Source: Alphaproteobacteria bacterium
GTDB lineage: Bacteria; Pseudomonadota; Alphaproteobacteria; CALKHQ01
Assembly: GCA_965227515.1 (NCBI GenBank)
Contig: CBDDFZ010000001.1
Coordinates: 1,056,001-1,120,000 of the forward strand
Length of the DNA stretch: 64,000 nt
Direction of reading: 5' to 3'
The notes under the pieces were generated by a model. It searched no databases and was not told the origin of the DNA. It worked only from the letters and a program-made list of their open reading frames with translations. The position numbers were made by a program, and so were the translations under genes. This document shows positions 22,885 to 38,821 of this stretch, in pieces (position 1 is the stretch's first letter; every line of letters starts with the position of its first letter).

Positions 22885-24630
22885 TCAGGAAGTAAGGGCG
22901 TTTTCAGTCCGCTGCTGTACGCGTGCCAGTACACCGCGGGGCGGGTGCCGGTGCAGCAGCATGTCGTGGATTTCCTCGCCCAGGATTTCAATCAGGGTGG
23001 AGATGCCGGGCACCGGCGGCCGGGGCCACATGCGCATGAAACCGCGGCTATGGAAATCGTCGATGGCATCGATCATCGGCGAGCGCGCGCGCACCTCGGC
23101 GTCGCGGCAGACGCTGAGCCTGGCGCAGGCCAGGTTTCCGTTCATACTGAACAGCTTCATCACCTCCGGTGAGGTCAGCGAGCGTATCGCCGTCCAGGCC
23201 GCCTCCACCCGTGCAGGCTCGAGATTAGCCGGAATTGCGAGCGCATAGCCGCCCATCGGCGTGATCGGCCGCCCGCGTGGGCCCACCGGATGCGGCAGAT
23301 ATCCCGTTCGCCCGAAGGCCGCGCAGTTTTCGTTGAGCTCGAAGACCGGCGCCAGCAGCGAGTGGGAATAGGCGAAAGCGGACTCGCCACGGGCGAAGGT
23401 GGTCGCGCGGTCGTACCACGCCATGCCGAGGATGTTCGGCGGCGAGTGGTCCATCAGTTCGCGCATGAACTCGGCCGTTTGCAGCGCCTCGTCGCTCAGG
23501 AACTGCGGCACCGGCCGCCAGTCGCGGTCGACCGCCGCATCGAACCCGCCCTCCGATGCGGGAAGGCTCAGCACGCTCTGGCCGAAGGCGGCCATCATCA
23601 TCATGAAGCTGTGGCCGAGCGGCGTGCCGCGCGCGGCGTTCCACGACACGCCCCACATCCGCTCGCGCGTTCTGCTGACCAGCGGCAAGGCCCGCACTAG
23701 GTCTGCCGCCGTCCGCGGCGGCTCCAGGTCCAGGCCCTCCAGCACATCGGTGCGATAAACCAGCATCTCAGCCGTGGTGACGATGGGTACGCCGTAGCTG
23801 CGGCCCAGGTATGAGGCGCTGGAAAGCGCGTCGGGGTAGAAGTCCTCCAGGTCGGTTCCGGCGGATGCGATCAGGTCGTCGAGCGGCCGCAGCACTCCCT
23901 CCGCGGCCAGTTCGCCGAACCAGGGCAGGTCGCAGGCAAGGATGTCGTAGCGCGAACTCGCGAGCCGGGCGTTCTCCAGTATCTGCAGGCGCAACCGGTC
24001 GATGGATAGCGCGCGGCTGCTGATGGCGGTGCCGAGGATCAGCTCGACCTGACGTTTGAGCGTGTTCATCGCGGTGAATGTCGGGTCGGCGTGCAGCAGC
24101 AGGCGCAGGCCCGAGCCCGCATCCAGCCGGCGGTTGAGCACGACCGGCGGGCCGATGATCCGATCCCGGGCGGTCGCGATGCTGCCCCGATCGGCCGCTC
24201 CGCTCTGGGCGACGAAGCTCGCCAGATGTTCCCGAAGCTGTCTGGCCAGGAGACTCCAGCGCCGGAGCAGTTCGTCGGTCGGGTGCAGCGAGAACGACCG
24301 GCCGCTGCGCGTGCGCGGCCGGACCATCACGAAGTCCGATGCCCGCAACCTGTCGATCAGACGCATGGCCGAGCCGTAGCTCATCCCGGAGGCGGCGACG
24401 GCCGACGACGTGGTGACCACCTGGCCAAGGAAATGGCTGCGCAGCAGGTAGAGGATCATTTTCAGACCATGCGGGCCGCTCCGCAGGCCAAAGGTGTCGG
24501 ACACCTCCACGTCGAGCTGTTCCACAAGGTCGAGCACACGAAGCTGCGCGGGATTACCCGGCAGATGCGCGGGACCGACGTCGCCGCGCTCGTAGGGGCC
24601 TTCTGGCTCACGAACGACCGGATGCTTCAT
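22885..24630 (-). CDS. MarR-like wHTH fused to sugar-binding-protein domain (regulator)
   Basis: N-terminal SSAVAASGMSYGSAMRLIDRL...RPRTRSGRSFSLHPT; C-terminal YDILACDLPW, LVYRTDVL, GGYALAIP; no signal peptide. Confidence 0.8.
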   Translation of the reverse strand: MKHPVVREPEGPYERGDVGPAHLPGNPAQLRVLDLVEQLDVEVSDTFGLRSGPHGLKMILYLLRSHFLGQVVTTSSAVAASGMSYGSAMRLIDRLRASDFVMVRPRTRSGRSFSLHPTDELLRRWSLLARQLREHLASFVAQSGAADRGSIATARDRIIGPPVVLNRRLDAGSGLRLLLHADPTFTAMNTLKRQVELILGTAISSRALSIDRLRLQILENARLASSRYDILACDLPWFGELAAEGVLRPLDDLIASAGTDLEDFYPDALSSASYLGRSYGVPIVTTAEMLVYRTDVLEGLDLEPPRTAADLVRALPLVSRTRERMWGVSWNAARGTPLGHSFMMMMAAFGQSVLSLPASEGGFDAAVDRDWRPVPQFLSDEALQTAEFMRELMDHSPPNILGMAWYDRATTFARGESAFAYSHSLLAPVFELNENCAAFGRTGYLPHPVGPRGRPITPMGGYALAIPANLEPARVEAAWTAIRSLTSPEVMKLFSMNGNLACARLSVCRDAEVRARSPMIDAIDDFHSRGFMRMWPRPPVPGISTLIEILGEEIHDMLLHRHPPRGVLARVQQRTENALTS

Positions 24631-24756: not shown

Positions 24757-25052
24757 TCACTCCGACCGGTCGTCGGTGGTGAACAGGGCCGCGATCCGCC
24801 AGCCATCGCCGGTTTCCACCGCCAGCATGCTGACGAGAAAGCGCAGCTCGCTCGGCGCGGCGGCCTGGCCGATCACCAGCGTCAGCGGCAGGTGCAGGAA
24901 GCCGCTTCGTCAGAAATGACGACCGGCGTGGCGTTCTCAAGATCCGGCTCCACCCGCAAGACCTCGGACTTCTGGAACACCGCCGTGCGGCTGACTATGG
25001 TGTCGGCACCCCAATAGGTCATGCCGTTGCTGACCCACAGGAATTGCGGCGT
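24757..25052 (-). pseudogene. 5'-truncated, frameshifted NTF2/SnoaL-like gene
   Basis: PQFLWVSNGMTYWGADTIVSR...VISDEA, 1-nt frameshift near 24900, then FLHLPLTLVIG...LRFLVSMLAVETGDGWRIAALFTT*. Confidence 0.65.
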
Positions 25053-25160
25053 GGATACCTCAGCGTCGAGCTCTTCTACCCGGTCGAGTACACGAAGCTG
25101 TACCGGAGCGGCCAAGTGTAGCGCAAGTCCGACGTGATTTGAACTTCGAGGGGCCATTCG
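25053..25160 (-). pseudogene. fragment paralogous to the 5' end of the wHTH-SBP regulator
   Basis: VG...PVQLRVLDRVEELDAEVS versus VG...PAQLRVLDLVEQLDVEVS at about 24500-24580; visible nucleotide similarity. Confidence 0.7.
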
Positions 25161-25258
25161 ACACACGATCTGGTACTCGACTCTTTTCGAGCCACAAGCT
25201 ATGCTGCTCAAAAAGCAGGCAAGGGAGGAAGAAGGATGTAGTGATCGAAGGTGAGGTC

Positions 25259-26488
25259 ATGACCACCCATTACTCCCTGAGCAGCTTTATCCGGCAAGCT
25301 GCAAACCGCCATTTGGCGGAATATGCCGAGCATAATGCCATCGACCTCGGCACCGACATATCGCAGCTTAAACCAAGAACATTCCAGCCTATTTTCGAGG
25401 CAGTCATGGCGCTGCCGGAGGACGCGCGCGCCGCTATAGATGCAGACTTCCGGAAGGTCGCATTGCTGGGCAACCAAGCCGGGTTACAGCACTTGCGCGC
25501 AGAGGCCGACCATAAGGGTTTGGACCTTGGTTCCGCACTGCAGACCCAGAACAGCTTTCTCAACAAAGCGTTCTGGGCCTTCTTGAACCATCGCAACGTC
25601 TTTGACCGAGCATCACGGTTCGCGACGCCGCATCTGACCGGACGCTACTGGAAGCGCGGGCTGCCGCTCGTCAGCGCACCGGGCATCGAACTCGGCGACC
25701 GGGTAGACGTCTTGAGAGAAGCCATCAGCCTTCACTTCTTCAAGGAAGAGGGGCGCGGGCGGGCTTGCAAGGTCGACTACGACGCCCGACGACCGAGCCA
25801 CATGTTCTACGCCTTCCCAGAGGATTACCCCGCCGCCCCGCTGGCCTGGTTGCGCGATGAACTGGCGCCACATCCGTTCCGGCCAGCCTTCGAGGTTGTG
25901 TTTGTGTATCGCGACGATGACGGCACCCTTGACGTGTATTTCGAGGGCGCGAAAGCGAGCGTCGATCAACTGTGGCAATTGTTCGCCAGATCGGTCCTCG
26001 GGCTCACCGACCTGCCGACGCTCACAAAGCCAGCCTACTGGCTGGAGCCGCTAAAGTCGTCCTCGTTCTCGTTCACTTGGCCAATTCAGGCACCTATCAC
26101 CTCCGTTCGAACCAAGCGCCTGACGTTCGCGACGATGGGTGACACGCCGACCAGGGTCTCAGTGACGTCCGATGTCTCGAATGATGGATCCGCTCTTCAC
26201 CGCGCGATCGATCGACTATTCGTTCGAGATGGGCCATCGGTGGGGCGCATGTCGCTCAATCATGCCAGGGTCGTCGGTGCTCAGTTGCAAGCGGTCGTAG
26301 ACCATCACGACGGCACACGGCCCAAAACGCGCTCTTTCGATATCTCAGAGCAGTCTTGCGCTCTGAAGCATGATGGAGATGACCTGCACTTGCGGCACAT
26401 GCTAGCCGCCAGCGGCATTGACCGAACCACAGGTTTTTCAAGTGATGACGCCCCAGCAGGATCGCGCACTCAACGCGCTGCTGAGTGA
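25259..26488 (+). CDS. hypothetical protein (409 aa), element gene A
   Basis: GAGG RBS, ATG 25259; overlaps the next gene; no recognised domain. Confidence 0.85.
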   Translation: MTTHYSLSSFIRQAANRHLAEYAEHNAIDLGTDISQLKPRTFQPIFEAVMALPEDARAAIDADFRKVALLGNQAGLQHLRAEADHKGLDLGSALQTQNSFLNKAFWAFLNHRNVFDRASRFATPHLTGRYWKRGLPLVSAPGIELGDRVDVLREAISLHFFKEEGRGRACKVDYDARRPSHMFYAFPEDYPAAPLAWLRDELAPHPFRPAFEVVFVYRDDDGTLDVYFEGAKASVDQLWQLFARSVLGLTDLPTLTKPAYWLEPLKSSSFSFTWPIQAPITSVRTKRLTFATMGDTPTRVSVTSDVSNDGSALHRAIDRLFVRDGPSVGRMSLNHARVVGAQLQAVVDHHDGTRPKTRSFDISEQSCALKHDGDDLHLRHMLAASGIDRTTGFSSDDAPAGSRTQRAAE

Positions 26489-27446
26489 TTTGATTGCTCG
26501 GCTTGCTGCCTCGGGCGGCGACCCAATCTCAATCCAAAGGGATGAATTCCGACCCCCTCAGCATGGCGGCCTGCGGGTGTTTGAAGCTCAATATCTCCTG
26601 AGTCCCATTGAGCCCCGAAGGTCGGTTATCTGCGACGGCTGCGAGCGCAGATGCCCTATGGAGGTGACATTTGAGGCCAGGCGAGGCAGACCGGCAGACG
26701 CCTTCGTTGTCTGCGACAAGCGCACGGACATAGCTCGAGTTCCAGTTGATATGCGTCGGCTGTCCCGATGGTCGCTATCCCTGCAAACAGTCGGCCACGT
26801 CCTCAAGTGGGTGATGCCAACAAGCCAATATCCTTATCGCCTTGACGGTGACGAGTTCTGGAGACTGGGGCGGTTTGCACAACACAGCCACAAGGATGAA
26901 ACGGTCGACGTGGTCCTCCTGGAGCAACTCGGCGACCAGCCAATGGAAGCCGGCCTCGTGATCGTGCTTTCGCGAACTTCGCAACCCATTGGCGCTGGCG
27001 TTGTAGCTCTACCGGACCTGCTGTTGGTCAAGGACGGCCGCCTGAGCGTCAACAGGACCGCACTCCGCCGCGCCCTGGAAGGGCCTCGCGAAGACGATGG
27101 CCGCATAGCGTGTGAAATCCGCTTCGGCCTTGGCGAAATCCTGCTTGTCAATCACGTGACACGGCAGCGAACCGTCCTTGCGCGTCCAAATTTCAACTCG
27201 TCGAACGACAACGCATTTCAGGTGCTTTTCGCAAAGCCTGGCGTGAGATTCACACTCTCGGAACTTCGCGCGGCCGCAGGGGACCAAACAATCGTAGGCC
27301 TGCACAAATTGGTCGAGAATCTCCATTTCGAAGGGCTGTTAAAGGCGGTCTTTTTCCGCGTATCGAAGGATGCGATCCAGTTTCGAAGACATGTAACCGT
27401 AGGCGAACTTGCCACCCATGGCATCGATCCGAGGGAAATCGTCTAA
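26445..27446 (+). CDS. hypothetical protein with Cys4 Zn motif and C-terminal wHTH-like region, element gene B
   Basis: VICDGCERRC...FVVCDK; C-terminal AFQVLFAKPGVRFTLSELR...; 44-nt overlap with gene A. Confidence 0.8.
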   Translation: MTPQQDRALNALLSDLIARLAASGGDPISIQRDEFRPPQHGGLRVFEAQYLLSPIEPRRSVICDGCERRCPMEVTFEARRGRPADAFVVCDKRTDIARVPVDMRRLSRWSLSLQTVGHVLKWVMPTSQYPYRLDGDEFWRLGRFAQHSHKDETVDVVLLEQLGDQPMEAGLVIVLSRTSQPIGAGVVALPDLLLVKDGRLSVNRTALRRALEGPREDDGRIACEIRFGLGEILLVNHVTRQRTVLARPNFNSSNDNAFQVLFAKPGVRFTLSELRAAAGDQTIVGLHKLVENLHFEGLLKAVFFRVSKDAIQFRRHVTVGELATHGIDPREIV

Positions 27447-27460
27447 CACTGTCGGTTCGC

Positions 27461-27540
27461 TCCCGATCCATCCCCATCCGTCCCTTTCTATCCCCACCAT
27501 GACGACGTGAGCCCGCCTGCGGCCGTATCCGGTCGTCATG
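27461..27540. promoter_or_regulatory. four phased 10-bp repeats plus hairpin upstream of the replication module
   Basis: TCCCGATCCA TCCCCATCCG TCCCTTTCTA TCCCCACCAT, then ATGACGAC...GTCGTCAT inverted repeat overlapping the next ATG. Confidence 0.6.
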
Positions 27541-27720
27541 GCAAGGTCGATTCCCGATCCGCTCGATGTCGTCGCGATGCGGCTGCGCTGCCTCGAAGAC
27601 GCTGACCTGAGCGAGGTGGAAGCGGTCGAAGCCGGGCGCAACTTGGCCGGCTTCATTGCGTTGCTGGCGCGGATCGACGGCGCGCCATCCAAGCGAGGTG
27701 ATGCCAATGAATGTGACTGA
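27538..27720 (+). CDS. small helical hypothetical protein (60 aa)
   Basis: LSEVEAVEAGRNLAGFIALLARID amphipathic helices; overlaps the spoVG-like start. Confidence 0.65.
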   Translation: MARSIPDPLDVVAMRLRCLEDADLSEVEAVEAGRNLAGFIALLARIDGAPSKRGDANECD

Positions 27721-28015
27721 AGTGGAAATCGCGTTCGTTAAGCCGCGAAACGGGCTGATCGCGTTCGCCAGCTTGGTGCTCGATGACCAGCTCTACCTCA
27801 GCGGCATCGCGATCCATCGCAAACTCGACGGCGGCGGCTACCGCTTGACCTACCCCACCCGCAAGATCGGAGACCGGTCGATCGACATCTTCCATCCAAT
27901 CCGGCGGCCAATTGGCCAGGCCATCGAGACGGCCATTCTCGAAAAGCTGAACGACGTAGTGAGCAAGTGCGATGCTGGATACGGTTGCGCTGAGTCTCGA
28001 CACACGCGCCTTTGA
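27707..28015 (+). CDS. SpoVG family nucleic-acid-binding protein
   Basis: MNVTEVEI...LIAFASLVLDD...GIAI...LTYPTRK...DIFHPI...IETAILE; GAGGTG RBS. Confidence 0.85.
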   Translation: MNVTEVEIAFVKPRNGLIAFASLVLDDQLYLSGIAIHRKLDGGGYRLTYPTRKIGDRSIDIFHPIRRPIGQAIETAILEKLNDVVSKCDAGYGCAESRHTRL

Positions 28016-29129
28016 GATCCTCGATCCCGGCCGGTTCAGTCCCTCGGCAGTGGGCCTGCTGCAGCCGCCCTACTACCCGCTCGGCGGCCGAGGTAACATT
28101 GCCTGCGTGCAGAACCCGACCAAGGCCGACTTCGCGGCCGGACGCTACCTGCCGAGGCTGACGCTGGCCAAGCGCAAGGTGCGTGGTGGATTCTCGATCA
28201 CGCTCCGGGTCGAGTTTTCCGCACCCAAGTTGGTCTACGGGAACAACTTCGACGAGCTGACATCGCGCGAGTTCGACGTGGTGGTCGATACGCTGCGCCA
28301 CGCGCTGGCGAGCATGGGTGTTCGGGTCAGCGACTACGACCTACGTGCAGCCAACGTCTCGACGGTGCACTACAGCAAGAATGTCTGCTTCACCGACTAC
28401 ACGACCTGCTCAATGGTGATGCGCGAACTCGACCTGATCGACCTCGACGGTCGCCTGGATCTCTCGCATACCGACTACCGCAACAACGGTCACGCCATAC
28501 GCTATCACGCCAACAGTTTCGAGCTGACGTTCTACGACAAGATGCGCGACCTGGAGAAAGCCAGGTTCAGCGAGAAGCGCGCAATCGAACAAGACAATCG
28601 TATTCAGGCCGACCTGTTCAGCGAGCGGGACGATCTACCGAAGCAGCTCGAGGTCCTGCGGATGGAGGTCCGGCTGGGCAACCGCACCAAAATCAAGGGC
28701 CTGCTGAAGCGCATCGGCGCCGACATCGAGCCGACCTTCGCGGCGCTGTTCGATGCAAGCCTGGCCAAAGACGTGCTGCTGCACTTCTGGGAGCAGATCA
28801 GGCGGCAATTGCCGCTCGCCGGACAGACCGCGGACCGCCGGCCGGAGGAGTTGCTGTCGACCCTCGCCGCTGCTTCGGACGGCAACGCGCGACCCGGCGC
28901 CCTTCTGCAGCAGCTCGGTTGCGTCCTGCTCGTCGCCTCGGTTGGCGTGCGCGGCGCCGGCGCCCTGATGAGCCGCCATTGCAGCAACCGATCCTGGCAA
29001 CGCTACAAACGGCAACTGCGCGAACTGAACATTCCAGCCACGAATCGGTTCAGCGCTCTTGACCAGGTGGGCGACACCCTGTCCAGATTCCACCCCTTGA
29101 GACTCGCCGACATCACCCAACTCACGTGA
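27972..29129 (+). CDS. rolling-circle replication initiator (Rep_trans / phage gene II-X-like)
   Basis: MLDTV, LRVEFSAPKLVYGNNF, VSTVHYSKN, LTFYDK (putative catalytic Tyr), VLRMEVRL. Confidence 0.75.
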   Translation: MLDTVALSLDTRAFEILDPGRFSPSAVGLLQPPYYPLGGRGNIACVQNPTKADFAAGRYLPRLTLAKRKVRGGFSITLRVEFSAPKLVYGNNFDELTSREFDVVVDTLRHALASMGVRVSDYDLRAANVSTVHYSKNVCFTDYTTCSMVMRELDLIDLDGRLDLSHTDYRNNGHAIRYHANSFELTFYDKMRDLEKARFSEKRAIEQDNRIQADLFSERDDLPKQLEVLRMEVRLGNRTKIKGLLKRIGADIEPTFAALFDASLAKDVLLHFWEQIRRQLPLAGQTADRRPEELLSTLAAASDGNARPGALLQQLGCVLLVASVGVRGAGALMSRHCSNRSWQRYKRQLRELNIPATNRFSALDQVGDTLSRFHPLRLADITQLT

Positions 29130-29141
29130 GAGACCACACTG

Positions 29142-31562
29142 ATGGCCATCAAGAAGTCAGAACTCTACGCCTCGCTGTGGGCCAGTTGCGACGAGTTGCG
29201 CGGCGGCATGGATGCCAGCCAGTACAAGGACTACGTCCTGGTGCTGCTGTTCATCCGCTACATAAGCGACAAGTATGCCGGCGTGCCCTATGCGCCGATC
29301 ACGGTACCCGAGGGCGCCAGCTTCAAGGACATGGTCGCCCTGAAGGGCAAGCCGGACATCGGCGATCAGATCAACAAGAAGATCATCGGTCCGCTGGCCA
29401 ACGCGAACCAAGAGCTGTCGCAGTCCGACTTCCCCGACTTTAACGACCACACCAAGCTGGGCAGCGGCAAGGAGATGGTTGACCGGCTGACCAACCTGGT
29501 CGCTATCTTCGAGCGCAAGGCGCTGGATTTCTCCAGGAACCGGGCCGACGGCGACGACATCCTGGGCGACGCCTACGAGTATCTGATGCGCCACTTCGCC
29601 ACCGAGAGCGGCAAGAGCAAGGGCCAGTTCTACACGCCGGCCGAGGTAAGCCGGGTGATGTCCCAGATCATCGGCATCCGAAGCGCCGTCACCGGGCCCG
29701 ACACCACCGTCTACGACCCGACCTGCGGCTCCGGGTCGCTGCTGCTGAAGGTGGCCGACGAGGCGAGAACCACGGTCACGCTCTACGGCCAGGAGAAGGA
29801 CGCCACCACCAGCGGCTTGGCGCGAATGAACATGATCCTGCACAACGTGCCTACTGCGCTGATCATGCAGGGCAACACGCTGACCGACCCGAAGTACAGG
29901 GACGGCGAGGCCCTGAAGACCTTTGACTACGTCGTCGCCAATCCGCCCTTCTCGGACAAGCGCTGGAGCACGGGGCTCGACCCGCTGCACGACCCGCATC
30001 ATCGCTTCCAGCCGTTCGGCGTGCCGCCGGCCAAGCAGGGCGACTATGCCTATCTGCTGCACATCGTGCGATCGCTGAAGAGCACGGGCGCCGGCGCCTG
30101 CATCCTGCCGCATGGCGTGCTGTTCCGAGGCCATGCCGAGGCCGACATCCGCCGGGCCCTGGTGCGCAAGGGCTACATCAAGGGCATCATCGGGCTGCCG
30201 GCCAACCTGTTCTACGGGACCGGCATCCCGGCCTGTATCGTCGTGGTCGACAAGCGCGACGCCGCGGCCCGCGAGGGCATCTTCATGATCGACGCCAGAG
30301 CCGGGTTCATGAAGGACGGGCCGAAGAACCGGCTTCGGTCCCAGGACATCCACAAGATCGTCGACGCCTTCAACCGGCAGCAGGAGATCCCGAGCTATGC
30401 CCGCATGGTCGGCTACGCCGAGATCAGGAAGAATGACTTCAACCTCAACATCCCGCGCTACATCGACAGCCGGCAGCCGGAGGACCTGCAGGACATCGAG
30501 GGCCACCTGAAGGGCGGGATCCCGGTCTCCGACATCGATGCGCTGCAGCGCTACTGGGACGTCTGTCGCGGCCTCAGGACAACCCTGTTCCGGGACAACC
30601 GCCCCGGCTACGTTGACCTCGCTGTCGACAAGGCGGAAATCAACGCAACGATCTACGGCCATCCTGAGTTCTCTGCCTTCGTCGCAGACATGAACACCCA
30701 CTTCGCCGCCTGGAGGGACCGCAGCGCCGCGACTCTGAAGGCTCTCGCCGCCGGGTGCGACCCGAAGCAGGTGGTCTTCGACCTTTCGGAGGACCTGCTG
30801 GCGCACTATGGCGGCAAGCCGCTGATTAACGGCTACGACGTCTACCAGCACCTGATGGACTATTGGGCCGACACGATGCAGGACGACTGCTACCTGATCG
30901 CCGCCGACGGCTGGCGGGCCGAGACCTATCGCGTCATCGAGACAGTCAAGAGCGGCAAGAAGAAGGGCCAGGAGAAGGACGTAGGCTGGGCGTGCGATCT
31001 GGTTCCCAAGCCCTTCATTGTCGAACGGTATTTTGCAGACGAGCAGGAAGAAATCGAGCTGCTCACCGCTGACATCGAAAGTGTCATCGCGCAGCTGGCC
31101 GAACTGGAGGAGGAGCACGGCGGAGAGGACGGCGCATTTTCCGAGTTCGAGAAGGTCAACAAGGCCAACGTAGCGGCTCGCCTAAAGGAGATCCGGGGCG
31201 ACAGGGACGCTAGAGACGAGGCCGCCGCGCTCAATGACTGGATCAAGTTCGACAGGCAAGAGACCGATCTCAAGAAGCGTTTGAAGGATGCTGAGGCCGC
31301 GCTCGACGCCAAGGCTTACGCCCACTATCCGAAACTGACCGAGCCCGAGGTCAAGGCGCTGGTGGTGGACGACAAGTGGCTCGCCACACTGGATGCAGCC
31401 ATCCATGGCGATATGAATCGCGTGAGCCAGCAGCTCTCTACGCGCGTGAAAGAGCTTGTTGAACGATACGAGACAGCTCTGCCGCAATTGGCCAACCGCG
31501 TGGCGGAACTTGAAGACAAGATAAAACACCATCTCGAAAGGATGGGGTTTGCATGGACCTAA
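29142..31562 (+). CDS. hsdM: type I RM methyltransferase subunit
   Basis: GQFYTP, YDPTCGSGSLL, VANPPFS (m6A), LPHGVLFRG. Confidence 0.96.
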   Translation: MAIKKSELYASLWASCDELRGGMDASQYKDYVLVLLFIRYISDKYAGVPYAPITVPEGASFKDMVALKGKPDIGDQINKKIIGPLANANQELSQSDFPDFNDHTKLGSGKEMVDRLTNLVAIFERKALDFSRNRADGDDILGDAYEYLMRHFATESGKSKGQFYTPAEVSRVMSQIIGIRSAVTGPDTTVYDPTCGSGSLLLKVADEARTTVTLYGQEKDATTSGLARMNMILHNVPTALIMQGNTLTDPKYRDGEALKTFDYVVANPPFSDKRWSTGLDPLHDPHHRFQPFGVPPAKQGDYAYLLHIVRSLKSTGAGACILPHGVLFRGHAEADIRRALVRKGYIKGIIGLPANLFYGTGIPACIVVVDKRDAAAREGIFMIDARAGFMKDGPKNRLRSQDIHKIVDAFNRQQEIPSYARMVGYAEIRKNDFNLNIPRYIDSRQPEDLQDIEGHLKGGIPVSDIDALQRYWDVCRGLRTTLFRDNRPGYVDLAVDKAEINATIYGHPEFSAFVADMNTHFAAWRDRSAATLKALAAGCDPKQVVFDLSEDLLAHYGGKPLINGYDVYQHLMDYWADTMQDDCYLIAADGWRAETYRVIETVKSGKKKGQEKDVGWACDLVPKPFIVERYFADEQEEIELLTADIESVIAQLAELEEEHGGEDGAFSEFEKVNKANVAARLKEIRGDRDARDEAAALNDWIKFDRQETDLKKRLKDAEAALDAKAYAHYPKLTEPEVKALVVDDKWLATLDAAIHGDMNRVSQQLSTRVKELVERYETALPQLANRVAELEDKIKHHLERMGFAWT

Positions 31563-32845
31563 GCAACGAGTATAAGAAGACAGAGTTGGGAAGACTTCCA
31601 AAGAATTGGAAGATTGAACCTGCGCGCAACTTTTCGACAATAAGAACAGGTCCATTTGGAACAGTCCTCAAGGCATCAGAGTATTCAAAGACAAGCGGTG
31701 TACCGCTTATCTCAGTCGGCGAAATTCGCGAAGGATTCCTGGAAATTTCCGACCGCACGCCGCTCGTTTCTGACGTTGTCACGCGACGACTGCCTCAGTA
31801 TGTCTTAAGAGGGGGCGACATCGTTTTTGGAAGAAAAGGTGCAGTTGATAGGTCTTCGTTAATAAGAGAGTGGCAAGCCGGTTGGTTCTTAGGATCTGAT
31901 GGCATATACATGAGGCTGAACATAGATTTACATGAGGCCTATGTAGCATATCAATTTCAGAGCGCGCGTGTCCAAAGTTGGCTTCTTCAGTACGCTCTCG
32001 GCACTACGATGCCGTCGCTTAATCAAAAAATACTTGGCGAAGTTCTTATCCCTCTCCCGGCCACAAGAGCCGAACAGGAAGCTATCGCCGAGGCGTTGGG
32101 CGACGCAGATGCCCTCATCGAATCCCTAGAGCAACTCATCTCCAAAAAGCGCCAGATCAAGCAGGGCGCCATGAAGGTGCTGCTCACCGGCCAGCGGCGC
32201 CTGCCTGGATTTGACGGGAAGTGGAAGGTCAAGACATTTGCGGAGCTGTTCACCTTCAGCGGTGGCTATACCGCTTCACGCGCCCAGCTTTCCGGGGAAG
32301 GACACTGTTACCTGCACTACGGAGACATCCATGGCGCGACGAAGACATGTGTTGATACGAGCGTCGACTATCAGGATATACCTAAGCTCGATATCGATCT
32401 CATGCAGGTCCCGCCTAGCGCTATACTAAAAGACGGCGACGTCGTTTTCGTTGATGCTTCGGAAGATGACGAGGGAACGAGCAAACATATCGTCATTGCA
32501 AACCGCAACAATGTGCCGTTCATAGCTGGCCTTCACACAATTGTTGCCAAGAGTAATACGAACGACCTCGTTCATGAATATCGCCGTTACTGTTTTCAAA
32601 CGACAGCGATCCAACAGCAGTTCCGATTTTACGCGGTTGGAACGAAGGTATCTGGCATCAGCAAGGGCAATATTCCCAAGCTATCCCTTCCGGTCCCCCC
32701 AACTGCCGAACAAATCGCCATTGCCAGCGTCCTGTCCGACATGGATGCCGAGATCGAGGGACTGGAGGCCAAGCTCGTCAAGGCCCGGCTCATCAAGCAA
32801 GGCATGATGCAGGAGCTGCTGACGGGAAGGGTTCGATTGGTATGA
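31553..32845 (+). CDS. hsdS: type I RM specificity subunit
   Basis: Two TRDs, each followed by conserved EQ.AIA..L.D.DA.IE.LE...K.R.IKQG.M..LLTG helices. Confidence 0.95.
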   Translation: MDLSNEYKKTELGRLPKNWKIEPARNFSTIRTGPFGTVLKASEYSKTSGVPLISVGEIREGFLEISDRTPLVSDVVTRRLPQYVLRGGDIVFGRKGAVDRSSLIREWQAGWFLGSDGIYMRLNIDLHEAYVAYQFQSARVQSWLLQYALGTTMPSLNQKILGEVLIPLPATRAEQEAIAEALGDADALIESLEQLISKKRQIKQGAMKVLLTGQRRLPGFDGKWKVKTFAELFTFSGGYTASRAQLSGEGHCYLHYGDIHGATKTCVDTSVDYQDIPKLDIDLMQVPPSAILKDGDVVFVDASEDDEGTSKHIVIANRNNVPFIAGLHTIVAKSNTNDLVHEYRRYCFQTTAIQQQFRFYAVGTKVSGISKGNIPKLSLPVPPTAEQIAIASVLSDMDAEIEGLEAKLVKARLIKQGMMQELLTGRVRLV

Positions 32846-35800
32846 CCCCCATCGGCCAACCCGAACGCGCGACCCAGAACAGGGTGATTGCCCTGTTCCG
32901 CGATGAGCTTGACTACCGGTTTTTGGGCGCCTGGAGCGACCGGGTCGGCAACAGCAACATCGAGGAAGGTCTGCTGTCCGAGTGGCTGACAGGACGCGGA
33001 TATTCGGGCGCGCAGATCAACGCGGCGCTGCACCGGCTTCGTACCGAGGCGAGCAACCACAATAGGACGCTCTACGGCAACAACGCCGCCGTCCACTCCC
33101 TGCTGCGGTACGGCGTTCCGGTCATGACCGAGGCCGGTAAGCCAACCGAGACCGTCCTCCTGATCGACTGGGACGACCCGGTCAGCAACGACTTCGCAAT
33201 CGCCGAGGAGGTGACGCTGTCGGGAGACCTGACGCGCCGACCGGACATCGTGCTCTACGTCAACGGCCTCGCGATTGGCGTGCTGGAGCTGAAGAACAGC
33301 CGCGTCTCGATCGGCGACGGGATCCGGCAGTGCCTCTCCAACCAGAAGCCGGAGTTCCATCAGTGGTTTTTCACCACGGTGCAGTTTATCTTCGCCGGCA
33401 ACGATTCCGAGGGCTTGAAGTACGGCACGACGGGCACTGAGGAAAAGTACTTCCTGAAATGGAAGGAGGACGAAGCGGACGACTCCCGCTTCAAGCTGGA
33501 CAAGTACCTGTTGAAGCTGTGCGAGAAGCACCGGCTGATCGAGCTGATGCACGACTTCATTGTGTTCGACGGCGGGATCAAGAAGCTACCGCGCCCGCAC
33601 CAGTATTTCGGGATCAAGAAGGCACAGGCCTTCGTCGAGCGCCGCGAGGGCGGGATCATCTGGCACACCCAGGGCAGCGGCAAGAGCATCGTCATGGTGC
33701 TGCTGGCCAAGTGGATCCTGGAGACCAACCCCCATGCCCGCGTCGCGGTGATCACCGACCGCGACGAGCTGGACCGGCAGATCGAGCGCGTGTTCCGCGA
33801 CGCCGGCGAGCCGATCAAGCGGACCAGCAGCGGCCGCGACCTGATGCGGCAGCTGGGGGAGGCCACGCCGCGGCTGCTGTGCTCCCTGGTGCACAAGTTT
33901 GGCGGCAGGGGCGTCGACGACTTCGAGGCGTTCATCCGGGACCTGGAGGCCCAGCCGAGCCGGGCCGTGGGCGAGGTCTTCGTATTCGTGGACGAATGCC
34001 ATCGGACCCAGAGCGGCCGGCTGCATCGGGTGATGAAGGCAATGATGCCGGACGCGGTCTTCATCGGCTTCACGGGCACGCCACTATTGCGCAGGGACCG
34101 GCAGACCAGCCTGGAGGTCTTCGGCGGCTACATCGACACCTACAAGTTCAGCGAGGCGGTCGAGGACGAGGTGGTGCTGGACCTCGTGTACGAGGCCCGC
34201 GACATCGACCAGCGCCTTGGCTCCGAGAACAAGATCGACGCCTGGTTCGAGGCGAAGACCAAGGGGCTGAACGACTGGCAGCGGGAGGAGCTGAAGCAGA
34301 AGTGGGGCACGATGCAGGTCGTGCTGAGCTCCCGCTCGCGCATGGACCGGGTCGTGGCCGACATCCTGTTCGACTTCAGCGTCAGGCCGCGCCTGTCCAA
34401 CCAGCGTGGCAATGCGATCCTGGTGGCGTCGAGCATCTACGAGGCTTGCAAGTACTTTGCCCTGTTCCAGAAGACGCCGTTCAAGGGCAAGTGCGCGATC
34501 GTGACGTCATACAATCCCCAGGCGCAGCACGTGACCCAGGAGGAGACCGGCGCCAACAGCGAGACCGACAGGCAGTTCATCTACAACACCTACATCGAGC
34601 TGCTGAAGGGCATCGAAGCCAAGCCCAACATGACGAAGACCGAGGCCTACGAGGAATGGGCCAAGGCGCTGTTCATCAAGGAGCCCGCCAACATGCGGTT
34701 GCTGGTGGTGGTGGACAAGCTGCTGACCGGCTTCGATGCACCGCCCTGCACTTATCTCTACATCGATAAGTCGATGCAGGACCACGGGCTGTTTCAGGCG
34801 ATCTGCCGGACCAACCGACTGGACGGCGACGACAAGGATTTCGGCTTCATCGTCGACTACAAGGCCCTGTTAAAGAAGGTCGAGAACGCGATCGCGGTCT
34901 ACACCTCGGAGCTGGACCGCAGCGCCGGTGGCGCCGACCCCGAAGTATTGCTGCAGGACCGGCTGAAGAAGGGGCGGGAGCGGCTGGACAACGCCATCGA
35001 GGCGCTGGCGCTGCTCTGCGAAGAGGTCGAGCCGCCCAAGGGCGAGCTGGAGCACATCCACTATTTCTGCGGCAACACCGAGATCCCGACCGACCTTCAG
35101 GACAGGGAGCCACTGCGGTCGGCGCTTTACAAGCAGACGGTCGCCCTCGTGCGCGCCTACGCCAATATCGCGGACGAGCTCGAGGCAGCCGGGTACAGCG
35201 GCGCCGACGTTGCTCGCATCAAGCAGCTGCTCGACCAGTACCTCGACATCCGCGAGATCGTCCGCAACGCCAGCGGGGAGACGATCGACCTGAAGGCCTA
35301 CGAGGCCGATATGCGGCATCTGATCGACACCTACATCGAGGCCGACGAGCCCCGGAAGATCTCTCCCTTCGATAACATGAGCCTAGTCGACCTGATCGTG
35401 AAGACAGGCATCGCCGACGCGGTTGCCTCGCAGCTCGGTGGGCTTAGGGGCGACAGGGACGCGATCGCCGAGACAATCGAGAATAACGTGCGCAGCAAGA
35501 TCATCAGGGAGCAGCTGAACGACCCGGCGTTCTACGAATCCATGTCGGCACTGCTCGACGAGATCATCGACGCGCGAAAGGCCAAGGCCATGGCCTACGA
35601 AGAATATCTCCGGCGGATCGGCGAGCTGGCGAAGATGGTTGCCACCGGCCAGGCCGAGGATACGCCGAAGGCGCTCGATACGCCCGGCAAGCGGGCCCTG
35701 TGGAACAACCTCGGCAGGGACGAGGCGCTTGTTCTGAAGATCGATGAAGCCGTCCGGGAGACTCGACCCGAGGGCTGGCGCGGCATCCAGTCTCGCGAGA

Positions 35801-35892
35801 ACGTTATCAAGGCGGCCCTCTATGGCGTGCTGCAGGATCAGGAGGAGGTCGAACGCATCTTCCTCGTGATCAAGGCGCAGAGCGAATACTGA
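32842..35892 (+). CDS. hsdR: type I RM restriction subunit
   Basis: RPDIVLYVNG...ELK nuclease; HTQGSGKS, DECHR, FTGTP, LLTGFDAP, QAICRTNR. Confidence 0.96.
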   Translation: MTPIGQPERATQNRVIALFRDELDYRFLGAWSDRVGNSNIEEGLLSEWLTGRGYSGAQINAALHRLRTEASNHNRTLYGNNAAVHSLLRYGVPVMTEAGKPTETVLLIDWDDPVSNDFAIAEEVTLSGDLTRRPDIVLYVNGLAIGVLELKNSRVSIGDGIRQCLSNQKPEFHQWFFTTVQFIFAGNDSEGLKYGTTGTEEKYFLKWKEDEADDSRFKLDKYLLKLCEKHRLIELMHDFIVFDGGIKKLPRPHQYFGIKKAQAFVERREGGIIWHTQGSGKSIVMVLLAKWILETNPHARVAVITDRDELDRQIERVFRDAGEPIKRTSSGRDLMRQLGEATPRLLCSLVHKFGGRGVDDFEAFIRDLEAQPSRAVGEVFVFVDECHRTQSGRLHRVMKAMMPDAVFIGFTGTPLLRRDRQTSLEVFGGYIDTYKFSEAVEDEVVLDLVYEARDIDQRLGSENKIDAWFEAKTKGLNDWQREELKQKWGTMQVVLSSRSRMDRVVADILFDFSVRPRLSNQRGNAILVASSIYEACKYFALFQKTPFKGKCAIVTSYNPQAQHVTQEETGANSETDRQFIYNTYIELLKGIEAKPNMTKTEAYEEWAKALFIKEPANMRLLVVVDKLLTGFDAPPCTYLYIDKSMQDHGLFQAICRTNRLDGDDKDFGFIVDYKALLKKVENAIAVYTSELDRSAGGADPEVLLQDRLKKGRERLDNAIEALALLCEEVEPPKGELEHIHYFCGNTEIPTDLQDREPLRSALYKQTVALVRAYANIADELEAAGYSGADVARIKQLLDQYLDIREIVRNASGETIDLKAYEADMRHLIDTYIEADEPRKISPFDNMSLVDLIVKTGIADAVASQLGGLRGDRDAIAETIENNVRSKIIREQLNDPAFYESMSALLDEIIDARKAKAMAYEEYLRRIGELAKMVATGQAEDTPKALDTPGKRALWNNLGRDEALVLKIDEAVRETRPEGWRGIQSRENVIKAALYGVLQDQEEVERIFLVIKAQSEY

Positions 35893-36608
35893 TGGTCACC
35901 CAGCTCGACCTTGGCGGCATCGCGGTCGACGTGGTGTTCAAGGATATCAAGAACGTCCATTTGAGCGTGCACCCCCCGACCGGGCGTGTGCGCATCTCGG
36001 CGCCGACCCGGACCAACCTGGACGCCATCCGCGCCTTCGCGATTTCGAAGCTCGGCTGGATCAAGCAGCAGCAAGGCAAGCTGCGGCAGCAGGAGCGCGA
36101 AAGCCCGCGCGAATACCTCGAGCGCGAAAGTCACCATGTGTGGGGCCGGCGCTACCTGATGGAGATCAGGGAGGCCGAGGCCCCGCCACTGGTCGAGCTG
36201 ACGCATCGCAAGTTGGTTCTTCGCGTCCGTCCCGGCACCGATGAGGAGGGCAGAGAAGCGGTCGTCGCCGAGTGGTACCGCGGCCAACTCAAGCAAGCCG
36301 CCCGGGCCTGGATCATCAGGTGGGAGCCGCGTCTGGGCGTTAAGGTCCGGCGGCTGTTCGTGCAGCGCATGAAGACGAAGTGGGGCGGCTGCAACCCTGA
36401 GGCCGGAAGCATCCGCCTTAACTCGGAGCTCGCCAAGAAGCCTCCTGAATGCGGGGAGTACGTCCTGGTGCATGAAATGGCCCACCTGATCGAGCGGCAT
36501 CACAATGATCGGTTCGTCGGCCTTATGGATCGACACCTGCCGCAGTGGCGGGCCCACCGCGATGCCCTGAACGCCGCGCCGCTGGCGCACGAGAGTTGGA
36601 CCTACTGA
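35892..36608 (+). CDS. YgjP/DUF45 (M48-like) metal-dependent hydrolase
   Basis: MKTKWGGCN, YVLVHEMAHL...HNDRF; TGATG overlap with hsdR. Confidence 0.9.
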   Translation: MVTQLDLGGIAVDVVFKDIKNVHLSVHPPTGRVRISAPTRTNLDAIRAFAISKLGWIKQQQGKLRQQERESPREYLERESHHVWGRRYLMEIREAEAPPLVELTHRKLVLRVRPGTDEEGREAVVAEWYRGQLKQAARAWIIRWEPRLGVKVRRLFVQRMKTKWGGCNPEAGSIRLNSELAKKPPECGEYVLVHEMAHLIERHHNDRFVGLMDRHLPQWRAHRDALNAAPLAHESWTY

Positions 36609-36664
36609 TCGAACCGACGCGCCACTTGCTACGTAGCGCGTATCGGCCTATATGGACGGAATGA

Positions 36665-36946
36665 ATGATCCTCTCGTTCAGATGCAAGGAGACGGAACGC
36701 ATCTGGCAGGGTCTTGCCAGCCGGAAGTTCCCGGCCGCCATCCAGGATCGCGCGCTGCGCAAGCTGCGTCAGCTGGACGCGTCGCGGACCATGGACGACC
36801 TGCGCAACCCGCCGGGCAATCGGCTCGAGGCCCTGAGAGCGGACCGCGCAGGCCAATGGAGCATCCGCATCAACGACCAGTGGCGCATCTGCTTCGTCTG
36901 GCGGGAGGGCGACGCGAGCGACGTCGAGATCGTCGACTACCATTGA
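36665..36946 (+). CDS. higB: HigB toxin (RelE/ParE family)
   Basis: DLRNPPGNRLEAL...SIRINDQWRICF...VEIVDYH. Confidence 0.95.
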   Translation: MILSFRCKETERIWQGLASRKFPAAIQDRALRKLRQLDASRTMDDLRNPPGNRLEALRADRAGQWSIRINDQWRICFVWREGDASDVEIVDYH

Positions 36947-36974
36947 AGGCCGTAGTGAACCGAAAGATGTAGCG

Positions 36975-37277
36975 ATGGGCCAGTTGCGCAACCCACATCC
37001 GGGGGAGATCCTCCGGCATGAGTTCCTCGACGAGATCGGCATGAGCCAGAACGCGCTTGCCCAGGCGATCGGCGTGCCGGGCAACCGCATCCACGCCATC
37101 GTCAACGGCACCCGCTCCGTGACGGCGGAGACCGACCTGCGACTGTGCCGGTTCTTCGGGTTGTCAGAAGGCTATTTCCTACGCCTGCAGAACGCCCACG
37201 ACACCATGGCGGCCAAACGGCGCATAGGAGCCGAGGTCGAACAGATTGCGCCCTACAAGCCCCAGGAGGCGGCCTGA
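36975..37277 (+). CDS. higA: HigA antitoxin
   Basis: HPGEILRHEFL...SQNALAQAIGV...IVNGTRSVTAETDLRL. Confidence 0.95.
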   Translation: MGQLRNPHPGEILRHEFLDEIGMSQNALAQAIGVPGNRIHAIVNGTRSVTAETDLRLCRFFGLSEGYFLRLQNAHDTMAAKRRIGAEVEQIAPYKPQEAA

Positions 37278-37280
37278 GCC

Positions 37281-38780: not shown

Positions 38781-38821
38781 GCGGGTCAGAGCCGCTCGTT
38801 CTACCGTTAAACTATCCCCCA
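38748..38821 (-). tRNA. tRNA-Gln (CTG), intact with CCA
   Basis: TGGGGGATAGTTTAACGGTAGAACGAGCGGCTCTGACCCGCTTAGTCCTGGTTCGAATCCAGGTCCCCCAGCCA; cloverleaf, anticodon CTG. Confidence 0.97.

What the first reader, a model, noticed from the sequence alone, without database searches (positions are those of the whole stretch)
25259..27446. Uncharacterised coupled gene pair heading the element: candidate activator/sensor or anti-phage system
Seen: a 409-aa gene A overlaps by 44 nt a 333-aa gene B carrying CxxCxxxC...C and a C-terminal winged-helix-like segment. The pair sits directly before the phased repeats and the replication module, and upstream of RM and TA genes. I cannot assign either to a named family. 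Inference, two options: (i) a heteromeric activator sensing a helper element or damage and switching on excision/replication, functionally like SetCD/AcaCD; (ii) a new two-gene defence system.
Basis: inference. Interest (0 to 1): 0.7.

Follow-up and report, generated by a model that had tools for sequence, protein, structure and literature searches.

The report
DNA-binding gene pair heading mobile islands
Two overlapping genes at the left end of a 13.7-kb mobile island encode a widespread, unnamed protein pair that most likely binds DNA and controls the island's replication genes; it does not look like a new anti-phage weapon.

Summary
Gene A (25259-26488, 409 aa) overlaps gene B (26445-27446, 333 aa) by 44 nt, and they are the first genes of a low-GC island (~25052-38742) that ends in a serine recombinase beside tRNA-Gln. 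Neither protein matches Pfam, NCBIfam or PADLOC. The pair is real and conserved: 76 of 77 informative loci from many phyla have B directly after A, usually with a 4-nt overlap, and three loci fuse them into one ORF. Family A has 3297 cluster representatives. The model of A (pLDDT 88) resembles CENP-N/Chl4, Iml3 and RdgC; published work puts phage lambda RexA in that DNA-binding fold class. The model of B (pLDDT 90) has an N-terminal winged helix carrying the Cys4 site and a C-terminal OmpR/PhoB-type winged helix. In relatives, B's C-terminus is swapped for other transcription-factor domains, or an AlpA gene follows. A-B always sits at the head of unrelated replication modules. B's C-terminal domain also occurs without A in most elements of this replication type, just before the same phased repeats. 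My best reading (0.45) is a portable DNA-binding regulatory module for the early/replication operon. A defence or toxin-antitoxin role (0.15) and a DNA-transaction role (0.2) remain open. The complex prediction could not be run.

The parts
25052..25258 (.). Left end of the island and the region upstream of gene A (junction plus a presumed promoter)
   Evidence: Homology to same-family genome G001 ends at about window 25051. GC drops here. No sigma-70 consensus site was found.
25259..26488 (+). Gene A, 409 aa. It has an N-terminal helical region (about res 1-125) and two alpha/beta domains of the CENP-N/Chl4, Iml3 and RdgC fold class.
   Evidence: ORF. No Pfam, NCBIfam or PADLOC match; phrog_37634 (unknown function) at 9.5e-14. 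AF2 pLDDT 88.2. Foldseek: CENP-N E 4e-4 prob 0.99-1.0, RdgC E 7e-3 prob 0.92-0.96. VIA: CENP-N Z 8.0-8.7, RdgC 5.5-5.9, Iml3 5.4. Phage RdgC-type proteins in BFVD E 5e-4.
26445..27446 (+). Gene B, 333 aa, translationally coupled to A by a 44-nt overlap
   Evidence: AF2 pLDDT 90.4. A B relative lies directly after A in 76 of 77 informative loci.
26445..26789 (+). B residues 1-115: winged helix with an inserted Cys4 metal knuckle (C63, C66, C70, C90 at about 26631-26714). This is the part of B conserved across the family.
   Evidence: VIA: CAP, GntR, Fur and AbiEi-type winged helices Z 5.3-6.3 over res 1-116. Conservation.
27111..27395 (+). B residues 223-317: OmpR/PhoB-type winged-helix DNA-binding domain, specific to this clade
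   Evidence: VIA: GlnR 8hml Z 7.7 rmsd 2.5 A over 84 aa, OmpR 1odd Z 7.2, and more than 20 similar rows. Foldseek prob 0.9-0.98. Relatives L073 and L097 hit Pfam Trans_reg_C. The domain occurs alone, without A, in 17 loci of the same replication type.
27461..27541 (+). Three to four 10-bp phased TCCC/ATCC repeats (27461-27496), then CCATGACGACG and its inverted partner (27497-27541). This is the candidate binding site of B's C-terminal domain, or the replication origin.
   Evidence: The same layout directly follows the B-type gene in L001, L006, L002, L148 and L131. That B binds here is inference only.
27538..29129 (+). Downstream module that A-B precedes: small ORF (27538-27720), SpoVG-like gene (27698-28015) and a 385-aa gpII/Phage_CRI-like initiator (27972-29129)
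   Evidence: Pfam SpoVG 3e-9. ESM Atlas nearest named clusters carry Phage_CRI/G2P, scores 0.96-0.97. SpoVG accompanies the 385-aa gene in 69 of 80 metagenome loci.

Best explanation
A and B form a two-protein DNA-binding module that belongs to the core of the mobile element, not to its cargo. It most likely controls the early (excision/replication) operon that it heads. B is the site-specific adaptor. Its conserved N-terminal half (a winged helix with a Cys4 metal knuckle plus a beta domain) pairs with A. Its C-terminal output domain is exchangeable, and here it is an OmpR/PhoB-type winged helix. That output domain is inferred to bind the 10-bp phased repeats immediately downstream of B, in front of the small ORF, SpoVG and gpII-like replication genes. 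A is a CENP-N/Chl4, Iml3 and RdgC-fold protein; the lambda RexA paper places RexA in that fold class. A is inferred to be brought to DNA by B and to set or stabilise the on/off state of the operon, possibly in response to a signal, by analogy with the way RexA tunes the lambda CI/Cro switch. Shown here: the genes, the coupling, the fusions, the predicted folds, the conserved position and the domain swapping. Inferred: that A and B bind each other, that B binds the repeats, and the direction of regulation.
For: (1) Pairing. Of the 80 loci kept out of 120 relatives of A, 71 have a B match by tblastn and 5 more by clustering. Three of the four without B are contig ends. 37 of 71 pairs overlap by 4 nt under the longest-ORF rule. 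L076, L077 and L079 carry A and B in one ORF of 666, 666 and 658 aa, which I read through. Exhaustive-search hits of 667 and 610 aa also exist.
(2) B is a DNA binder. Two winged-helix domains are predicted at pLDDT 90. The C-termini of relatives carry other transcription-factor domains: Trans_reg_C in L073 (31.7 bits, cut-off 26.2) and L097 (25.9 bits), Sigma70_r4_2 in L090, and HTH_17 in one member.
(3) Fixed position before unrelated replication modules. 48 of the 63 loci with at least 3.5 kb downstream have a replication-type gene on the same strand within 6 kb. The types are DUF3987, Toprim, RepB_primase, DnaG-Toprim-AAA_25, Prim-Pol, D5-like, PolA, RecD2-like and the gpII-like protein. 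Integrases are tyrosine or serine type, and the upstream cargo varies.
(4) AlpA complementarity. AlpA follows B in 0 of 16 loci where B is at least 305 aa and in 40 of 48 where B is shorter.
(5) In prophage-like contigs the order is serine recombinase, then (in L096) a cI-like HTH gene, then A, B and the early/replication genes.
(6) Modularity. Among 27 loci of the gpII-like/SpoVG type with at least 3 kb upstream, only 1 has A. In total 17 loci carry only B's C-terminal domain at the same spot, joined to other N-termini in the two examined: 495 aa in L148 and 397 aa in L131.
(7) Repeated motifs lie just after B in distant loci.
(8) Precedent. The RexA paper reports an RdgC/Iml3/Chl4-type fold, non-specific DNA binding, interaction with CI and Cro, and a bias of the lambda switch (PMC11077077; abstract, Introduction and passages read).
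Against: No experiment or complex model supports A-B binding, because complex prediction never ran. The fold matches of A are middling: Z 8-8.7 at rmsd about 5 A for CENP-N, and Z 5.5-5.9 at rmsd about 9 A for RdgC. The tool notes that a best Z of 7-8 is common for models without a clear match. RexA itself is not among the listed matches, and hhalign of family A against lambda RexA gives probability 0.06%. The phased repeats could equally be the binding sites or origin of the gpII-like initiator. All loci were chosen because they contain A, and relatives share ancestry, so the counts are not independent tests. In a sample of 400 genomes of the same class, the B profile found B next to only 2 of 9 strong A hits. 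In the one locus examined (L082), A is followed by a coupled 314-aa protein without the Cys4 motif and with only a weak hhalign match to the close-relative B alignment A2 (prob 0.6%). L030 has A without B. A has conserved charged residues (R166, R177, E188, D189, E212) and an invariant C170, which could instead mark an enzyme.
Confidence: 0.45

Rival explanations
1. DNA-transaction accessory rather than a transcription switch. B targets the RdgC-like protein A to the element's origin or ends. There A would shield replicating or excised DNA from RecA-dependent recombination or SOS signalling, or help origin handling, as E. coli RdgC restrains RecA.
For: RdgC and phage 'recombination-associated protein' models recur among A's structural neighbours in two libraries. 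A-B always precedes replication genes. Phased repeats plus a hairpin next to a rolling-circle-type initiator look like an origin. RdgC's properties are as summarised in PMC11077077 (passages read).
Against: The replication modules downstream are mechanistically unrelated (primase-helicases versus a gpII-like nickase), and most gpII-type elements do without A (1 of 27), so A is not needed for replication itself. B's variable C-termini are typical transcription-factor domains. There is no sequence match to Pfam RdgC.
Confidence: 0.2
2. A defence/exclusion or addiction module. A would be a toxin or effector and B its DNA-binding antitoxin or regulator, as in AbiE-like or Rex-like systems. The module would stabilise the island or abort phage infection.
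For: The genes are translationally coupled and sit on a defence-carrying island with a type I RM system. B's N-terminal winged helix resembles the AbiEi antitoxin (Z 5.6), and Pfam AbiEi_4 matches 2 of 57 members at a best E of 4e-4. A has conserved acidic and basic residues and an invariant Cys. RexA, which its paper places in the RdgC/Iml3/Chl4 fold class, takes part in phage exclusion (PMC11077077). The RnlA toxin's NRD domain is among A's weaker fold neighbours (Z 5.3-6.0).
Against: There is no credible PADLOC match for the window proteins or for 51 relatives (two singletons at E 0.0014 and 0.0058). No nucleotidyltransferase, nuclease or HEPN family was found in A. The pair keeps one position and orientation next to AlpA and replication genes while the true cargo around it changes. 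B's output domain is the element family's own conserved regulator domain. tblastn of the window's A protein at E 1e-5 found nothing in 50,697 phage and 72,556 plasmid records, whereas toxin-antitoxin pairs usually spread widely.
Confidence: 0.15

Closest known systems
Phage lambda RexA (of the RexAB exclusion pair), with the RdgC / Iml3 (CENP-L) / Chl4 (CENP-N) fold class it belongs to (PMC11077077)
   Same: A's best structural neighbours are CENP-N/Chl4, Iml3 and RdgC, which is the set the RexA paper names as RexA's structural relatives. Like RexA, A is encoded in temperate elements beside their regulatory genes and works next to a sequence-specific DNA-binding protein. According to the paper, RexA binds DNA, interacts with CI and Cro, and biases a switch.
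   Different: There is no sequence relationship (hhalign probability 0.06%; no PADLOC Rex model hit). RexA was not among the listed fold matches. A is 130 aa longer and has an extra N-terminal helical region. Its partner is a soluble double winged-helix protein, not a small four-helix membrane protein like RexB.
OmpR/PhoB-family winged-helix effector domains (Pfam Trans_reg_C); ToxR/CadC-type one-component activators
   Same: B residues 223-317 superpose on GlnR, OmpR, VicR, KdpE and PhoP DNA-binding domains (Z 6.5-7.7, rmsd 2.5-2.9 A). Such domains bind tandem direct repeats about one helical turn apart (general knowledge), and such repeats lie just after gene B. Relatives L073 and L097 hit the Pfam model.
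   Different: The window's B does not itself reach any Pfam hit. It has no receiver domain or membrane anchor. Instead it has a Cys4 winged helix and a beta domain at the N-terminus and a separate partner protein.
int-AlpA-primase/DUF3987 satellite-like islands (P4-like, PICI, PICMI; PMC10803314, of which only the search listing and abstract were seen)
   Same: Most relatives of A-B lie in islands with an integrase, AlpA and a primase-helicase plus defence cargo.
   Different: The A-B pair is an extra module placed before AlpA. I found no description of it in the searches I ran. The window's own island uses a serine recombinase, has no AlpA, and carries a gpII-like initiator with SpoVG in place of a primase-helicase.
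SetCD / AcaCD / SgaCD master activators of SXT, IncC and SGI1 elements
   Same: The idea of a two-subunit activator encoded by the element that turns on its excision and transfer genes.
   Different: Those are FlhDC-family proteins (my own knowledge). A and B show no FlhD or FlhC match and their folds are unrelated to that family.

Membership tests
RdgC (Pfam PF04381) | Sequence match to the family model | tested here: not met
   No Pfam hit for A at E up to 1 except a chance NifZ match. The A3 profile against PDB sequences gives no RdgC hit at E up to 10.
RdgC (Pfam PF04381) | Two alpha/beta domains of the RdgC fold | tested here: inconclusive
   Foldseek 2owy/2owl E 7e-3, prob 0.92-0.96. VIA Z 5.5-5.9 over 213-214 residues but rmsd about 9 A. 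Phage RdgC-annotated models E 5e-4 to 4e-2.
RdgC (Pfam PF04381) | Ring-shaped homodimer that binds DNA non-specifically | not testable with these tools
This needs SEC-MALS and EMSA.
Lambda RexA/RexB exclusion system | Sequence homology of A to RexA | tested here: not met
   hhalign of A3 against lambda RexA (from NC_001416): probability 0.06%. No PADLOC hit.
Lambda RexA/RexB exclusion system | Partner is a small polytopic inner-membrane protein (RexB) | tested here: not met
   The B model is a soluble three-domain protein with two winged helices and mostly short helices and strands. No dedicated transmembrane predictor was run.
Lambda RexA/RexB exclusion system | Shared fold with RexA | tested here: inconclusive
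   RexA is not in the listed matches, but its published structural relatives RdgC, Iml3 and Chl4 are (PMC11077077).
OmpR/PhoB winged-helix domain (Pfam Trans_reg_C), for B's C-terminus | Sequence match to PF00486 | tested here: not met
   The window's B has no hit. Relative L073 has 31.7 bits (cut-off 26.2) and L097 has 25.9 bits.
OmpR/PhoB winged-helix domain (Pfam Trans_reg_C), for B's C-terminus | Fold: N-terminal beta sheet, three helices, C-terminal hairpin wing | tested here: met
   Secondary-structure order E221-246, H253-303, E304-318. More than 20 family members at Z 5.4-7.7, rmsd 2.5-3.3 A, covering 78-89 of about 100 residues.
Two-component response regulators | N-terminal receiver domain | tested here: not met
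   No Response_reg match. B's N-terminus is a winged helix with a Cys4 insert.
SetCD/AcaCD (FlhDC-type activators) | FlhD and FlhC family domains | tested here: not met
   No such Pfam or NCBIfam hits for A or B.
AbiE toxin-antitoxin (AbiEi/AbiEii) | AbiEi winged-helix antitoxin paired with an AbiEii nucleotidyltransferase | tested here: not met
   B's N-terminus resembles AbiEi only weakly (Z 5.6; AbiEi_4 in 2 of 57 relatives, best E 4e-4). A has no nucleotidyltransferase match.
Any defence system in PADLOC-DB 2.0 | Match of either protein to a system component model | tested here: not met
   0 families for the window's A and B at E up to 1. Among 51 relatives, only two singleton hits at E 0.0014 and 0.0058.

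The most novel reading that the evidence does not exclude
A-B is a portable, Rex-like switch module of integrative elements. In this reading a CENP-N/RdgC-fold DNA clamp (A) is loaded at element-specific operators by a Cys4 winged-helix adaptor (B). The complex senses a cue such as incoming helper or competitor phage DNA, DNA damage, or redox state through the Cys4 site. It then locks the island's excision/replication operon on or off and, as a by-product, excludes other phages. That would make it a new, phylum-spanning class of lysogeny/satellite switch stabilisers built on the fold that eukaryotes use to read centromeres.
Probability: 0.2. Interest if true: 0.75.

Novelty: new variant of a known kind. 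Interest (0 to 1): 0.55.

Why it matters
Islands of the integrase/AlpA/primase type and small prophage-like elements carry much of the bacterial defence and resistance cargo, yet how they decide to excise and replicate is known for only a few model satellites. This pair is one of the few conserved, non-cargo modules shared by such elements across Pseudomonadota, Planctomycetota, Acidobacteriota, Armatimonadota and others. Family A has 3297 representatives at 50% identity, and it has no name or assigned function. If it is the switch, it gives a single handle for inducing or silencing many uncultured elements. It would also extend the RexA/RdgC/CENP-N fold to a new role with a defined DNA-targeting partner.

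Tried and rejected
The queue was full each time and the tool was then declared unavailable, so nothing was folded and there is no verdict on binding.
- The look-up of sequencing runs listed no RNA holder, so expression could not be examined and read laying was not used.
- tblastn of A found nothing in the phage and plasmid collections.
- The A and B profiles against PDB sequences gave only chance-level rows.
- The ESM Atlas gave only 'hypothetical protein' clusters for A, about half of them viral. A GAPS4b_N cluster at 0.79 was treated as chance.
- RexA did not appear in any listed fold match, and hhalign against lambda RexA was negative.
- hhalign of family A against the 495-aa protein of L148, which shares B's C-terminal domain, was negative. 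The matching comparison with A4 failed internally.
I read individual regions instead, so the repeat conservation is based on 8 loci read by eye, not on a statistic. The 11-nt core CCAYGACGACG occurs once in the window, but 22 of 100 shuffles also have at least one. A 12-nt degenerate pattern was too strict and missed the window itself.
- No sigma-70 promoter consensus and no terminator were found around the pair.
- The idea that A-B is an origin-binding initiator was dropped, because the downstream replication systems are unrelated and most gpII-type elements lack A.
- Literature searches for 'RdgC-like' and for satellites with AlpA, primase and zinc ribbon found no description of this pair.
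Full report
**What is in the window.**
One search shows two + strand ORFs. With the starts supported by homologues, they are gene A (25259-26488, 409 aa) and gene B (26445-27446, 333 aa), overlapping by 44 nt. They open a run of same-strand genes in a stretch of lower GC: 0.53-0.64 against 0.66-0.71 in the flanks. The run contains:
- a small ORF (27538-27720)
- a SpoVG-like gene (Pfam SpoVG 3e-9)
- a 385-aa gene
- type I hsdM, hsdS and hsdR
- a YgjP-like peptidase
- a 106-aa gene and an HTH_3 gene
- a large serine recombinase (37281-38780), which abuts tRNA-Gln at 38748-38821

DNA homology to a genome of the same family stops at about 25051 and resumes at about 38743. The island is therefore about 13.7 kb, and A begins about 207 nt inside its left end.

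**No named family.**
A and B have no match in Pfam, NCBIfam or PADLOC at E up to 1. The exceptions are chance-level rows and a PHROG of unknown function for A (phrog_37634, 9.5e-14). A word-indexed search found 37 relatives of A and 11 of B, all 'hypothetical'. An exhaustive profile search shows that family A is in fact large: 3297 representatives at E up to 1e-3, 2146 at 1e-10 and 907 at 1e-30. The host genome has one copy. In 400 sampled genomes of the same class, 14 others have a match.

**The pair is a unit.**
A scan of one genome per species found 120 relatives of A, and the best 80 loci were kept. They come from Alpha-, Beta- and Gammaproteobacteria, Planctomycetota, Acidobacteriota, Armatimonadota, Latescibacterota, Nitrospirota and others.
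- tblastn with the window's B hits 71 of the 80 directly downstream of A, and clustering adds L013, L029, L034, L046 and L047.
- Of the four loci without B, three end within 355 nt after A (L021, L053, L074). Only L030 truly lacks B. That gives 76 of 77 informative loci.
- Under the longest-ORF rule, 37 of 71 pairs overlap by 4 nt.
- In L076, L077 and L079 the two are one ORF. I read L076 through: A's conserved C-terminus continues through a 10-residue linker into B's N-terminus.
- Lengths of 667 and 610 aa also occur among the exhaustive-search hits.

There is a caveat. In the same-class sample, the B profile detected B next to only 2 of 9 strong A hits. In L082, A is followed by a coupled 314-aa protein that lacks the Cys4 motif and resembles B only faintly: hhalign against the close-relative B alignment A2 gives probability 0.6%. 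The partner therefore diverges, or is replaced, in some lineages.

**Structure of B.**
The AF2 model, built from a 57-sequence alignment, has a mean pLDDT of 90.4.
- Residues 223-317 superpose on OmpR/PhoB-family DNA-binding domains: GlnR Z 7.7 at rmsd 2.5 A over 84 residues, OmpR Z 7.2, and more than 20 further family members. Foldseek gives probabilities of 0.9-0.98 with ToxR, PhoB and OmpR.
- Residues 1-115 form a second winged helix of the CAP, GntR, Fur or AbiEi type (Z 5.3-6.3). The Cys4 site is inserted in it.
- C66 and C90 are invariant, C63 and C70 are at least 90% conserved, and W109 is invariant.

Only the first 210 residues or so are conserved across the family. The C-terminus changes with the clade: Trans_reg_C in L073 and L097, Sigma70_r4_2 in L090, HTH_17 in one member, and short basic tails elsewhere.

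**Structure of A.**
The model has a mean pLDDT of 88.2. It has a helical N-terminal region followed by two alpha/beta domains.
- Foldseek's only matches at E up to 1e-3 are CENP-N chains (prob 0.92-1.0), followed by RdgC (E 7e-3).
- VIA gives CENP-N/Chl4 Z 7.3-8.7, CENP-L 5.9, RdgC 5.5-5.9 and Iml3 5.1-5.4. Many TBP-like single-domain hits score around Z 5-7.
- In the viral library, the top rows are phage 'recombination-associated protein (RdgC)' and 'exonuclease' models (E 5e-4 to 4e-2).

These scores are middling, so I treat the fold class as likely and the family as unassigned. A literature search on RdgC plus Iml3 led to the crystal structure of lambda RexA (PMC11077077; abstract, Introduction and passages read). 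Its authors report that RexA shares its two-domain fold with RdgC, Iml3 and Chl4. They also report that RexA binds DNA non-specifically, interacts with CI and Cro, and biases the lambda switch toward lytic growth independently of RexB. A shows no sequence relationship to RexA (hhalign 0.06%).

**Context in relatives.**
I clustered ORFs across the 80 loci and labelled them with Pfam.
- A-B is followed on the same strand by AlpA and/or a replication gene in 48 of the 63 loci with at least 3.5 kb downstream.
- The replication genes belong to at least eight unrelated kinds.
- The integrases are tyrosine or serine recombinases.
- The genes upstream are variable cargo, mostly RM or helicase systems and often on the opposite strand.
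- AlpA follows B in 40 of 48 loci where B is under 305 aa and in 0 of 16 where B is longer. These loci are related, so the contrast is descriptive only.
- Eight IMG/VR contigs carry A. In L094, L096 and L097 the order is serine recombinase, then A-B, then early recombination and replication genes; L096 also has a cI-like HTH gene before A. L090 carries a type I RM plus YgjP cargo like the window's, followed by A, B, DUF1376, DnaB and an integrase.

**The window's own element type.**
The ESM Atlas places the 385-aa protein among clusters carrying Phage_CRI/G2P, with scores of 0.96-0.97. This is a lead, not proof, for a gpII-like rolling-circle initiator. It has more than 1000 close relatives, none named. 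In 80 metagenome loci of this protein, SpoVG accompanies it in 69.
- Of the 27 loci with at least 3 kb upstream, only one has A.
- In all, 17 loci match only B residues about 205-333, immediately upstream of the small ORF, SpoVG and Rep genes.
- In the two examined, that domain ends proteins with unrelated N-termini: 495 aa in L148 and 397 aa in L131.
- Directly after this gene I read the same cis layout in the window, L001, L006, L002, L148 and L131. It consists of four to five CCC-containing repeats spaced 10-11 bp apart, followed by a GACGAC core.
- Betaproteobacterial loci have a different motif: a CGCCCAA palindrome after B and two direct copies before alpA.

**Interpretation.**
The C-terminal winged helix is the conserved regulator or site-binding domain of this element family. 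A plus the N-terminal half of B is a portable module that has been attached to different DNA-binding outputs in different element families, and sometimes fused into one protein. It is dispensable for replication as such, always sits with the core genes, and is built from DNA-binding folds. I therefore favour a regulatory switch on the early/replication operon (0.45), with lambda RexA acting beside CI and Cro as the closest functional precedent. A role in protecting or handling replicating DNA (0.2) and a defence or addiction role (0.15) remain possible. PADLOC gives no support for the last.

**Limits.**
Gene calls in the loci are my own longest-ORF, greedy calls on high-GC DNA. The loci were selected for containing A or the 385-aa protein. 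The folds are predictions. Earlier notes of this scan on int-AlpA-DUF3987 islands only helped to classify the relatives' context.

Noticed in passing
window 27461-27541; L001 3154-3215; L006 3790-3845; L002 5529-5575; L148 5500-5560; L131 5500-5548: A conserved non-coding layout directly follows the B-type gene in very distant elements. It has four to five CCC-containing repeats phased at 10-11 bp, then a C(C/A)A(C/T)(G/A)ACGAC core; in the window that core forms a 21-nt imperfect hairpin. It could be the operator of the wHTH protein or the double-strand origin of the gpII-like initiator.
   Followed up: partly
window 27538-27720: A 60-aa ORF between the repeats and the SpoVG-like gene is conserved. 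tblastn hits 16 of 80 metagenome loci of the 385-aa protein and 2 of the 80 A loci, and similar small ORFs with a '...GF..LL..ID' motif occur in L001, L002 and L148. No family match.
   Followed up: partly
window 27698-29129: The SpoVG-like gene and the 385-aa gene overlap by 44 nt and travel together in 69 of 80 metagenome loci. The 385-aa protein has more than 1000 unnamed relatives at about 60% identity and is nearest to Phage_CRI/G2P clusters in the ESM Atlas. This looks like a large unannotated family of rolling-circle-type initiators, or relaxase-like proteins, on integrative elements.
   Followed up: partly
window 24499-24553 and 25053-25107; 24775-25051: A 55-nt direct repeat (80% identical) duplicates the N-terminal coding part of the 581-aa solute-binding/regulator gene at the island's left junction. 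The stretch 24775-25051 matches a different contig of the related genome G001. The island may have landed in, or beside, a paralogue of that gene.
   Followed up: partly
window 37281-38821: The serine recombinase ORF runs 33 nt into the tRNA-Gln gene on the opposite strand. The island end therefore lies at the tRNA's 3' side even though the recombinase is of the serine type.
   Followed up: no
window 29142-36608 and L090 89-7236: The cargo block hsdM-hsdS-hsdR followed by a YgjP-like metallopeptidase recurs in the IMG/VR contig L090, just upstream of its A-B pair.
   Followed up: no
L025 12003-12025 and 12170-12190; L032 12005-12030 and 12182-12200: In betaproteobacterial relatives, the half-site CGCCCAA forms a palindrome immediately after B's stop codon and recurs as two direct copies 10 bp apart just before alpA. 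This looks like an operator set for B or AlpA.
   Followed up: no
L030 10001-13285: This is the only informative locus with A but no B. A is followed by AlpA, then a 158-aa HTH protein with CxxC...CxxC, then a tyrosine integrase.
   Followed up: no
L050, L058, L062, L080: One Terriglobia MAG carries four copies of the A-B pair on four contigs. Each is followed by an ankyrin-ArdC protein and a TraG-like coupling protein, so the module also occurs in conjugation-linked elements.
   Followed up: no
L082 543-2658: In an alphaproteobacterial relative, A is coupled (17-nt overlap) to a 314-aa protein without the Cys4 motif. Its only resemblance to B is a weak 'W.LG ... F.DG' stretch in the middle domain.
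   Followed up: partly
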